A DNA stretch of 64,000 nt from Escherichia phage UE-S5a. The position numbers were made by a program, and so were the translations under genes. The stretch lies in the sequence record PP175015.1, one strand, 5' to 3'. The notes beneath the pieces were generated by a model. It ran no database searches, was not told where the DNA came from, and saw nothing but the letters and a program-made list of their open reading frames with translations. Positions 37,085 through 37,585 of the stretch are shown one piece after another; the first letter of the stretch is position 1; each line of letters opens with the position of its first letter.

Positions 37085-37585
37085 CTAAACTAACACCCAG
37101 TCTTCAGCTAATATATCTGATTGGGATGGGACCCAAGGCATAAACTGGTCATCAACAGTTTTGATTCCTAACCATGGACGAGGTTTCAATTCATCAGCAA
37201 GTCCTGGACGCTCTAAGCTACTGCTATTCCATTCTTGAGCAGCAACGTACTCAATGTACATTCCTTTACCATTCCAGCCTTTACGGGCTAGTTTGAAGCC
37301 GGATTTGAGAAGCTCTACTGCATGACCAAAGGTGCAACCTTTTTCTACGTCATGGTACGCAGTTTCAAATGCAGATTTAGGTGACCAGCTAATATAGCCA
37401 CGGAACTGAGGATGGTTAGACTTAGAGTCTGGGTACTCTACTAAGTAACCTTCTTCTAATGGGTCTTCATTAGCAGGTACATCCCAGCCACGAAGTTTGC
37501 AGTATGTTTCTTTGTTCATTCGGAAACCATTTACACACTTGGTTCCGATATAATTGGTAAAATGGACTTTAATTTCTTCTGACAT
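37085..37585 (-). CDS. DUF2829-like (Tad2-like) domain protein, candidate anti-defence factor
   Basis: ORF 37085..37612; ATG 37585 with GAGGT RBS; [29 protein letters not shown] resembles the DUF2829 signature as I recall it. Confidence 0.4.
   Translation of the reverse strand: [166 protein letters not shown]

What the first reader, a model, noticed from the sequence alone, without database searches (positions are those of the whole stretch)
37085..37585. DUF2829/Tad2-like protein at the convergent junction behind the vRNAP gene
The 166-aa product carries [29 protein letters not shown], which matches my recollection of the DUF2829 signature (the family that includes Tad2, the anti-Thoeris sponge that sequesters the signalling nucleotide). 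The domain sits in the middle of a longer protein with an extra N-terminal segment of about 90 aa, so this may be a fused or divergent variant. It is the last gene of the minus-strand module, next to small unknown genes and the tRNA array, which is typical anti-defence real estate.
Basis: partly seen in the sequence, partly recalled or inferred. Interest (0 to 1): 0.62.

Follow-up and report, generated by a model that had tools for sequence, protein, structure and literature searches.

The report
Two-domain Tad2 immune-signal sponge gene
This phage gene really does encode a Tad2-type protein of the kind that soaks up bacterial alarm molecules; it matches gene 49 of the model phage N4, lies in a published anti-defence hotspot, and its only unexplored part is a conserved extra N-terminal domain.

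Summary
The ORF at 37085-37585 (minus strand, 166 aa) carries the quoted motif. Residues 85-166 match Pfam Tad2-like PF11195 (E 2.8e-24) and solved Tad2 sponges by sequence (E 1.7e-20) and by fold (TM 0.8+). Eight of the ten ligand-contacting residues of SPO1 Tad2 are identical.

The domain is C-terminal, not central. The window is a Gamaleyavirus (N4-like coliphage UE-M3). The gene is the orthologue of N4 gp49, and its upstream neighbour is the orthologue of N4 gp48, an Acb4 sponge. Both lie in the primase-to-vRNAP "anti-signaling hotspot" published for N4-like phages in 2026. So this is a new member of a known kind, not a new system.

The N-terminal ~80 aa is the interesting part:
- It is a compact, confidently modelled domain with no Pfam or PDB match.
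- It is homologous to the N-terminal domain of the published RyR Tad sponge, which has no known function.
- A profile search found 2,276 representative proteins carrying it.
- It occurs alone or fused almost only to sponge families (Sequestin, Tad2, Acb4, Acb2/Tad1, RyR Tad).

Whether it only dimerises its partner or has its own anti-signalling activity is unknown. No ligand or phenotype was tested here.

The parts
37085..37585 (-). CDS of the two-domain protein (166 aa plus stop). It is the orthologue of phage N4 gp49.
   Evidence: ORF list and sequence. phrog_872 matches full length, E 1.3e-65. N4 gp49 has the same architecture.
37337..37585 (-). N-terminal domain (NTD), residues 1-83 with a core of about 10-79. 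Fold is beta-beta-alpha-beta-beta-alpha. Motifs are IGTK..PM..[14 protein letters not shown]..N...[10 protein letters not shown].AY.
   Evidence: - No Pfam, NCBIfam or PDB sequence hit.
- AF2 mean pLDDT 90.
- Homologous to the RyR Tad N-domain.
- 2,276 representative proteins carry it.
- Fusion partners are sponge families.
37088..37333 (-). Tad2-like (PF11195/DUF2829) sponge domain, residues 85-166.
   Evidence: - Pfam E 2.8e-24.
- PDB sequence hits to ModTad2 (1.7e-20) and SPO1 Tad2 (5e-13).
- Foldseek match to Tad2 structures, E 5e-7, TM 0.8+.
- Pocket residues W104, N105, I141, T143, D145, W151, S154 and D157 are conserved.
37175..37243 (-). Hypervariable insert of the Tad2 domain, residues 115-137. 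This is the loop that forms a second ligand pocket in some Tad2 proteins.
   Evidence: Only 9% identity to N4 gp49 here, against 81-87% in the flanking parts. The role of this region in HgmTad2 and ModTad2 comes from PMC10680739 and PMC12393519.
37590..37594 (-). Shine-Dalgarno-like GAGGT, 4 nt upstream of the ATG.
   Evidence: Read directly from the sequence.
37053..37076 (.). Bidirectional terminator-like hairpin (10-bp stem) between the convergent vRNAP and Tad2-like genes.
   Evidence: Terminator scan.
37603..37623 (.). Hairpin (8-bp stem) in the 118-nt spacer between the Acb4-like and Tad2-like genes.
   Evidence: Terminator scan. Its function was not tested.
37704..38096 (-). Upstream neighbour: an Acb4-family (PF13876) protein of 130 aa, the orthologue of N4 gp48.
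   Evidence: Pfam E 1.3e-25. N4 gp48 scores Pfam 8.8e-35. N4gp48 was shown to be an Acb4 sponge and a Panoptes trigger in PMC12657230.

Best explanation
The gene encodes a two-domain anti-signalling protein of an N4-like coliphage, the orthologue of N4 gp49.

C-terminal half. It is a bona fide Tad2-family domain. By analogy with solved Tad2 proteins, it most likely assembles into a homotetramer whose inter-protomer pockets bind and sequester TIR-derived ADP-ribose signals (3'cADPR/gcADPR and/or His-ADPR, possibly others). That would starve Thoeris-type effectors of their activator.

N-terminal half. It is a conserved module also found at the N-terminus of the RyR Tad sponge, where it forms a domain-swapped dimer. 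Here it most likely adds a two-fold dimer interface to the sponge. It may have a further, unknown activity.

Context. The gene is co-located, and probably co-expressed, with an Acb4-type cyclic-nucleotide sponge at the end of the replication-gene strand. Both lie inside the primase-to-vRNAP anti-signalling hotspot of N4-like phages.

Shown here: family membership, fold, pocket-residue conservation, orthology, genomic context and NTD homology. Inferred: oligomeric state, ligand, phenotype and expression class.
For: Tad2 domain:
- Pfam PF11195, 85.9 bits, E 2.8e-24, residues 85-166.
- phmmer hits to solved sponges: ModTad2 9eib and 8v3e (1.7e-20), SPO1 Tad2 8sme and 8wje (5e-13), HgmTad2/AcrIIA7 8kbi, SptTad2 8wjd.
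- AF2 model with mean pLDDT 86.8. Foldseek against the PDB returned only Tad2-family structures at E<=1e-3 (24 hits), with target-normalised TM 0.81-0.85.
- The ligand residues of SPO1 Tad2 (W25, N26, I63, T65, D67, H71, W73, S76, T78, D79; bioRxiv 10.1101/2023.05.01.538930) map to W104, N105, I141, T143, D145, M149, W151, S154, S156, D157. W104, N105, T143, W151, S154 and D157 are invariant in 42 family members.

Orthology and context:
- N4 gp49 has the same two-domain architecture, and N4 gp48 is Acb4-like.
- The order primase, Sak4, SSB, RuvC-like, then small genes and tRNAs, then Acb4-like, this gene, and the convergent vRNAP matches the published hotspot that contains Tad2, Acb4 and Sequestin (bioRxiv 10.64898/2026.06.04.730250).

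N-terminal domain:
- hhalign to CB1 gp68 (RyR Tad) N-domain: probability 93.5%, E 2.3e-7, 32% identity over 66 columns.
- Foldseek hit to the RyR-domain protein of Yersinia phage TG1: E 7e-5, TMq 0.68.
Against: - No binding or infection experiment exists for this protein or, as far as the searched literature shows, for N4 gp49.
- Ligand specificity within Tad2 cannot be read from sequence. The closest solved relative, ModTad2, does not inhibit type I Thoeris; it binds His-ADPR and cUMP/cCMP (bioRxiv 10.1101/2024.01.03.573942; PMC12393519).
- H71 of SPO1 Tad2 (a water-coordinating residue) is Met here.
- The N-terminal Tad2 helix alpha1 takes part in tetramerisation in solved Tad2s. Whether an 83-aa N-terminal fusion is compatible with the canonical tetramer was not modelled, because no multimer tool was available.
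- Expression timing is inferred from gene position only.
Confidence: 0.75

Rival explanations
1. Two inhibitors in one chain. The N-terminal domain is itself an anti-signalling module: a sponge, an enzyme, or a binder of a defence protein, acting on a signal that has not yet been tested. The protein would then neutralise two different immune signals, as the published Acb4-Tad2 and Acb4-Sequestin fusions do.
For: - Among the 147 best of 2,276 NTD-containing representatives, the Pfam partners are Sequestin PF21825 (45), Tad2 (36), Acb4 PF13876 (18) and the Acb2/Tad1 hairpin (5). The only other partner is one WDGH domain. A RyR Tad fusion adds a fifth sponge family.
- The domain occurs at the N-terminus, C-terminus or middle of proteins, in triple fusions (Acb4-NTD-Sequestin), and as stand-alone 73-76-aa ORFs.
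- The same 'fused to known sponges' logic led to the discovery of Sequestin (bioRxiv 10.1101/2025.07.12.664507). That screen used Pfam families only, so a Pfam-less domain would have been missed.
- The NTD is more conserved than its partner domains within the same proteins: 57-59% against 29-35% mean pairwise identity. The set is biased, because it was chosen by NTD score.
Against: - The homologous RyR Tad N-domain (gp68 residues 1-86) had no apparent activity against type I Thoeris. In the crystal it acts as a domain-swapped dimerisation element (bioRxiv 10.64898/2026.06.04.730250).
- The domain is acidic, with mean net charge -3.3. Known sponges have positively charged pockets.
- No pocket or oligomer could be modelled here.
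Confidence: 0.3
2. The Tad2 domain's main target is not the type I Thoeris signal. It could instead be His-ADPR (type II), N7-cADPR (type IV), Pycsar cUMP/cCMP, or CBASS dinucleotides, bound in the canonical pocket or in the second pocket formed by the variable insert.
For: - The best PDB sequence match is ModTad2, a His-ADPR and cUMP/cCMP binder (PMC12393519).
- Across 18 tested Tad2 homologues, every one of CBASS, Pycsar and Thoeris I, II and IV was inhibited by at least one member.
- The insert at residues 115-137 is a swapped cassette between close relatives: 9% identity to N4 gp49 against 81-87% in the flanks. That pattern is what diversifying selection on a second pocket would produce.
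Against: - The canonical gcADPR-pocket residues are almost all conserved.
- The insert is only about 23 aa. The dinucleotide-binding HgmTad2 and SptTad2 need inserts of 35-41 aa (PMC10680739).
Confidence: 0.35
3. It is an anti-CRISPR of the AcrIIA7 (DUF2829) type, as the Pharokka annotation of the orthologue in phage Mimir124 says.
For: AcrIIA7 chains 9kzr and 8kbi appear among the PDB sequence hits. The Mimir124 record labels the orthologue 'anti-CRISPR protein'.
Against: - AcrIIA7 (HgmTad2) has itself been shown to be a gcADPR and cGG sponge, and binding to Cas9 was never demonstrated (bioRxiv 10.1101/2023.05.01.538930; PMC10680739).
- From general knowledge, E. coli lacks type II-A Cas9 systems.
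- The same automatic label was also put on the Acb4-like neighbour, which suggests a database artefact.
Confidence: 0.03
4. The N-terminal domain is a Tudor/SH3-like domain that binds the host RNA polymerase, tethering or regulating the protein rather than acting in signalling.
Against: - The domain is spread over unrelated phages of Gram-negative and Gram-positive hosts, and it is fused specifically to sponge domains.
Confidence: 0.05

Closest known systems
Tad2 sponges: SPO1 Tad2 (PDB 8SME/8SMF), ModTad2 (8V3E/9EIB), HgmTad2/AcrIIA7 (8KBI)
   Same: - Same Pfam family, PF11195.
- 37-46% identity over the domain.
- Same predicted fold (alpha1 plus an antiparallel sheet), TM 0.8+.
- Conserved W-N and W...S.[ST]D pocket residues.
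   Different: - Carries an extra N-terminal domain of about 83 aa; the characterised Tad2s are single-domain proteins of 89-104 aa.
- H71 of SPO1 Tad2 is Met here.
- The insert is the short type, like SPO1 Tad2 and ModTad2, not the 35-41-aa dinucleotide-binding type.
- Ligand and oligomeric state are untested.
Phage N4 gp49 (EF056009, ABK54417), with N4 gp48 = Acb4
   Same: - Orthologous position: last gene before the convergent vRNAP.
- Same NTD-Tad2 architecture.
- 87% identity in the NTD and 81-83% in the Tad2 core.
- Same Acb4-like upstream neighbour.
   Different: The insert at residues 115-137 is replaced by an unrelated, shorter sequence (9% identity). In N4 the two genes abut, whereas here they are 118 nt apart with a hairpin between them.
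RyR Tad (Pectobacterium phage CB1 gp68; bioRxiv 10.64898/2026.06.04.730250)
   Same: Homologous N-terminal domain (hhalign 93.5%, 32% identity). The gene lies in the same N4-like hotspot and has the same two-domain 'NTD + ADPR-signal sponge' layout.
   Different: The C-terminal sponge domain is an all-helical RyR Repeat12-like fold, not Tad2. The CB1 N-domain is a shorter, more divergent version that lacks the RGW.P..E loop.
Fused sponges: Acb4-Tad2 (Pasteurella phage Pm86), Tad2-Sequestin, Acb4-Sequestin (Ab09 gp59)
   Same: Multi-domain anti-signalling proteins built from small oligomeric modules. Ab09 gp59 lies in the same hotspot.
   Different: In those fusions both halves are proven sponges. 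Here the second half (the NTD) has no demonstrated activity.

Membership tests
Tad2 / DUF2829 (PF11195) sponge family | Significant match to the PF11195 profile, above Pfam's gathering score | tested here: met
   85.9 bits against a cut-off of 25, E 2.8e-24, profile positions 2-73 of 73.
Tad2 / DUF2829 (PF11195) sponge family | [quoted passage not shown] | tested here: met
   The AF2 model has H86-94 followed by strands and short helices. Foldseek against the PDB gave 24 hits at E<=1e-3, all Tad2-family structures, with target-normalised TM 0.81-0.85 and rmsd 2.4-3.3 A.
Tad2 / DUF2829 (PF11195) sponge family | Conserved gcADPR-pocket residues: SPO1 W25, N26, I63, T65, D67, H71, W73, S76, T78, D79; HgmTad2 W21/N22 and S90/T92/D93 | tested here: met
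   Eight of ten are identical, T78 becomes Ser, and H71 becomes Met. Six of them are invariant across 42 homologues.
Tad2 / DUF2829 (PF11195) sponge family | Homotetramer with ligand pockets between protomers | not testable with these tools
   Only monomer prediction was available. It needs AF-Multimer/AF3 or SEC-MALS.
Tad2 / DUF2829 (PF11195) sponge family | Sequesters a TIR- or cyclase-derived signal and rescues phage from Thoeris or other signalling defences | not testable with these tools
   This is an experimental question. No data for this protein or for N4 gp49 turned up in the literature searches.
HgmTad2/SptTad2-type dual sponges (second pocket for cyclic dinucleotides) | Long insertion (35-41 residues) between beta2 and the next core strand | tested here: not met
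   The insert is about 23 residues (115-137), the same length class as SPO1 Tad2 and ModTad2.
[quoted passage not shown] | Sequence and structure similarity to CB1 gp68 residues 1-86 | tested here: met
   hhalign probability 93.5%, E 2.3e-7. Foldseek BFVD hit to the RyR-domain protein of Yersinia phage TG1, E 7e-5, TMq 0.68.
[quoted passage not shown] | Domain-swapped dimer, with beta1 donated to the partner's sheet | not testable with these tools
   Monomer model only. The RyR Tad coordinates were not in the PDB copies searched.
Anti-signalling hotspot of N4-like phages | Located between the DNA primase and the virion RNA polymerase, among SSB, Sak4 and RuvC-like genes and known signalling inhibitors | tested here: met
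   - vRNAP at 26677-37047 (plus strand).
- Primase (PriCT_1) at 43254-45464 (minus strand).
- AAA_24/Sak4-like at 42445-43197.
- SSB and RuvC-like genes placed by synteny with Mimir124.
- The adjacent gene is Acb4-like.
AcrIIA7-type anti-CRISPR | Inhibits type II-A Cas9 | not tested
   Only the shared DUF2829 domain is established. The literature re-assigns AcrIIA7 to the sponges.

The most novel reading that the evidence does not exclude
The N-terminal domain of about 75 aa (IGTK...EGYLVEY...SWSPK...) may be an unrecognised anti-signalling module in its own right: a further sponge, signal-modifying or defence-protein-binding family. It has no Pfam entry and no solved relative in the PDB copies searched. 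It is very widespread (2,276 representative clusters), occurs as a stand-alone ORF, and is the common fusion partner of at least five unrelated sponge families. On this reading, N4 gp49 and this protein are dual inhibitors.
Probability: 0.3. Interest if true: 0.7.

Novelty: new member of a known kind. Interest (0 to 1): 0.42.

Why it matters
As a Tad2 homologue, the gene adds little. Tad2 is the most widespread known sponge family, relatives are already annotated as DUF2829 or Tad2-like, and the N4-like hotspot has been published.

Two things are useful:
- It identifies gp49 of the classical model phage N4, and its Gamaleyavirus orthologues, as the partner of the already-studied Acb4 (gp48). 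That gives a genetically tractable E. coli system for asking what a Tad2 does in a coliphage.
- It singles out the N-terminal domain as a well-defined, testable candidate. The domain is small, strongly conserved and promiscuously fused to five sponge families. Its only experimental record is 'no activity against type I Thoeris', in a divergent homologue.

If the domain has its own ligand or target, it would be a new and very abundant family of immune-evasion modules. If it is only a dimeriser, it would show how phages build higher-order sponge assemblies.

Tried and rejected
- NTD against Pfam at E<=10 and against NCBIfam at E<=1: no hit.
- NTD against PDB sequences at E<=10, as a single sequence and as a 29-sequence profile: only chance-level hits (AfaD/DraD, E about 0.8).
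- Lockin considered for the NTD and rejected. Lockin is described as an elongated hexameric beta protein absent from complete phage genomes in INPHARED, whereas the NTD is present in 122 phage records.
- Acb5 considered and rejected. Its R10/W38/H61 motif and its actinophage distribution do not fit.
- PDB 6E3C, a domain excluded together with PF21825 in PMC12393519, turned out to be the phage L decoration protein and is unrelated.
- Tad3-Tad8 (protein-binding inhibitors) could not be compared, because the Cell 2025 paper is not held.
- My first local domain classification was wrong, because my Sequestin HMM included the NTD tail. It was rebuilt.
- The genomic context of a stand-alone NTD ORF was a 2-kb contig with no informative neighbours.
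- PHROGs gave only 'unknown function' families.
- No supplementary sequence tables were held to check whether an NTD-Tad2 protein was among the 18 Tad2 homologues tested in PMC12393519.

Full report
**What is there.** The window is essentially identical to Escherichia phage UE-M3, a Gamaleyavirus (N4-like, Schitoviridae). The 1.8 kb around the finding matches at 100% identity. On the minus strand an ORF ends at 37085. Its ATG at 37585 gives 166 aa and is preceded by GAGGT with a 4-nt spacer. Orthologues start at the same position. The gene is convergent with the 3,456-aa virion RNA polymerase ORF (26677-37047, plus strand). A 10-bp-stem bidirectional terminator-like hairpin at 37053-37076 separates the two genes.

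**Family assignment of the C-terminal half.**
- Pfam: PF11195 (Tad2-like, formerly DUF2829), 85.9 bits against a gathering score of 25, E 2.8e-24. It covers residues 85-166 and nearly the whole profile. The domain is therefore C-terminal, not central.
- PDB sequence search: ModTad2 (9EIB and 8V3E, E 1.7e-20, about 46% identity), SPO1 Tad2 (8SME and 8WJE, 5e-13), HgmTad2/AcrIIA7 and SptTad2.
- Structure: an AlphaFold2 model built on 42 homologues has mean pLDDT 86.8. Foldseek against the PDB gives 24 hits at E<=1e-3, all of them Tad2-family structures, with target-normalised TM-scores of 0.81-0.85.
- Pocket residues: SPO1 Tad2 contacts 1''-3' gcADPR, or the waters around it, through W25, N26, I63, T65, D67, H71, W73, S76, T78 and D79 (bioRxiv 10.1101/2023.05.01.538930). 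These align with W104, N105, I141, T143, D145, M149, W151, S154, S156 and D157. Eight are identical, one is conservative (T to S) and one is changed (H to M). Six are invariant in a 42-member alignment. They include the residues whose mutation abolished gcADPR binding in HgmTad2, namely W21/N22 and S90/T92/D93 (PMC10680739).
- Second pocket: the loop that forms a cyclic-dinucleotide pocket in HgmTad2 and SptTad2 needs 35-41 residues. Here it is about 23 residues, like SPO1 Tad2 and ModTad2.

**Orthology and context.** A tblastn of the N-terminal 83 aa against phage genomes hits phage N4 'gp49' at 89% identity.
- N4 gp49 (160 aa) has the same two-domain architecture (Pfam Tad2-like, 8e-24).
- N4 gp48, immediately upstream, is a PF13876 protein.
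- PF13876 is the Acb4 sponge family (PMC11722364). N4gp48 has been shown experimentally to act as Acb4 and to trigger Panoptes (PMC12657230).
- In the window, the gene upstream of the finding (37704-38096, minus strand, 130 aa) is the PF13876 orthologue, E 1.3e-25.
- Further upstream on the same strand lie two tRNA genes (38531-38690), small ORFs, a RuvC-like gene and SSB (by synteny with phage Mimir124), a Sak4-like AAA_24 protein (42445-43197) and the primase (43254-45464, PriCT_1).
- This is the interval that Fedorova et al. (bioRxiv 10.64898/2026.06.04.730250, June 2026) define as a conserved 'anti-signaling hotspot' of N4-related phages. They bound it by the primase and the vRNAP and report that it holds Tad2, Tad3, Acb4, Sequestin, Bes1 (RuvC-like) and Bes2.
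Several database records of relatives already call the orthologue 'DUF2829 domain-containing protein' or 'Thoeris anti-defense 2-like protein'.

**The N-terminal domain (NTD).** Residues about 10-79 have no hit in Pfam at E<=10, in NCBIfam, or in PDB sequences, whether searched as a single sequence or as a 29-sequence profile.
- Modelled alone, it folds confidently (mean pLDDT 90) as beta-beta-alpha-beta-beta-alpha.
- It is an autonomous, mobile module. A first search found it alone (73 aa), fused to Tad2-like domains, and fused on either side of PF21825.
- An exhaustive profile search of 1.84 billion representative proteins found 2,276 proteins at E<=1e-3, and 1,170 at E<=1e-10.
- Among the 147 best, the Pfam partners are PF21825 (45), Tad2-like (36), PF13876/Acb4 (18) and the Acb2/Tad1 hairpin (5). 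The only other partner is one WDGH domain.
- PF21825 is Sequestin, a 3'cADPR sponge discovered precisely because it is fused to Tad2 and Acb4 (bioRxiv 10.1101/2025.07.12.664507).
- A local re-annotation shows NTD-Tad2, NTD-Sequestin, NTD-Acb4, Acb4-NTD-Sequestin, Tad2-NTD and other orders, plus about eight essentially stand-alone forms.
- NTD fusions occur in Vibrio podophages and P22-like coliphages (with Tad2) and in a Clostridium phage (with Acb4).

**Link of the NTD to RyR Tad.** The NTD is homologous to the N-terminal domain of RyR Tad (Pectobacterium phage CB1 gp68).
- hhalign gives probability 93.5%, E 2.3e-7, 32% identity over 66 columns.
- Foldseek against BFVD hits the RyR-domain protein of Yersinia phage TG1 at E 7e-5.
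- They find that gp68 residues 1-86 alone has no apparent activity against type I Thoeris.
- In their crystal structure it forms a domain-swapped dimer that contributes to dimerisation.

**Mechanism.**
- Most likely, at about 0.75 for the Tad2 part, the C-terminal domain acts as a Tad2 sponge for TIR-derived ADP-ribose signals.
- The NTD supplies a two-fold dimer interface. That is compatible with the two-fold axes of dimeric Sequestin, tetrameric Tad2 and Acb4, and hexameric Acb2/Tad1.
- Which signal is bound cannot be inferred. Tested Tad2 homologues collectively inhibit Thoeris I, II and IV, Pycsar and CBASS (PMC12393519), and the closest solved relative binds His-ADPR rather than gcADPR.
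- The NTD may be more than a scaffold. In favour: stand-alone ORFs exist; it sits as a middle module in triple fusions; it is more conserved than its partners in the same proteins (57-59% against 29-35% mean pairwise identity, in a set biased by selection on NTD score); and its partners are almost exclusively sponges.
- Against that: the negative result for gp68_N, and the domain's acidity (mean net charge -3.3), which is unlike the basic pockets of known sponges.
- I put the 'independent anti-signalling module' reading at about 0.3.

**Other observation.** Between this protein and N4 gp49 the NTD is 87% identical and the two Tad2 core segments are 81% and 83% identical. The insert at residues 115-137 is only 9% identical. 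At least four unrelated insert alleles circulate among close relatives. In other Tad2 proteins this region builds the second ligand pocket, so it may be a fast-evolving specificity cassette.

**Verdict.** It is a new member of a known, already annotated kind, located in an already described hotspot. The residual interest lies in the uncharacterised N-terminal module and in the fact that the model phage N4 carries the same gene.

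Noticed in passing
window 37704-38096 (-): The upstream neighbour is an Acb4-family (PF13876) protein, the orthologue of N4 gp48. Beyond the Pfam domain it has a tail ending in C-D-G-G-G-C-T-I, conserved in N4 gp48 as C-E-G-G-G-C-K-I. This may be a metal or disulfide motif of unknown role.
   Followed up: partly
window 37175-37243 (-), residues 115-137 of the protein: The insert of the Tad2 domain is a swapped cassette: 9% identity to N4 gp49 against 81-87% in the flanking parts. 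At least four unrelated alleles occur among close Gamaleyavirus and Enquatrovirus relatives. The same region forms the second ligand pocket in HgmTad2 and ModTad2.
   Followed up: partly
window 37337-37585 (-); proteins P0156-P0302: The N-terminal domain is found in 2,276 representative proteins and in many domain orders: NTD-Tad2, NTD-Sequestin, NTD-Acb4, Acb4-NTD-Sequestin, Tad2-NTD, and triple fusions. It has no Pfam entry, so the published Pfam-based 'fusion to sponges' screen would not have seen it.
   Followed up: yes
P0260, P0278, P0291, P0297 (C-terminal ~110 aa): A further recurrent fusion partner of the NTD matches phrog_2428 (unknown function). Its motif is ...GVNG.T.EALL.I..HR...LN..FPC.EN...RT..R..RGVEG. 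It may be another uncharacterised anti-defence domain.
   Followed up: partly
L003 (phage N4, EF056009) 2127-2980: A naming trap. Pfam PF13876 is called 'N4 Gp49/Sf6 gene 66', but in the GenBank N4 record the PF13876 (Acb4) protein is gp48, and gp49 is the NTD-Tad2 protein.
   Followed up: yes
window 38300-40600: This stretch is poor in ORFs. It has only two detectable tRNA genes (38531-38609 tRNA-Ile; 38615-38690 with an abnormal anticodon loop, Rfam 40.7 bits).
   Followed up: partly
window 37603-37623 and 38260-38291: There are G+C-rich hairpins in the spacers upstream of the Tad2-like gene and upstream of the 61-aa ORF and Acb4 gene pair. The scan found 10 terminator-like sites in 2.3 kb against 1.9 expected. 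Whether they are terminators, processing sites or N4-type promoter hairpins was not examined.
   Followed up: no
L001 (phage Mimir124) 4828-5827: An automatic annotation labels both the Tad2-like and the Acb4-like orthologues 'anti-CRISPR protein'. This probably propagates from the AcrIIA7 entry rather than from evidence.
   Followed up: partly
window 41053-41607 (-): A 184-aa ORF sits at the position of the RuvC-like gene of relatives, which would make it a possible Bes1 orthologue in the hotspot. It has no Pfam hit at E<=1e-3, and its identity rests on synteny only.
   Followed up: no
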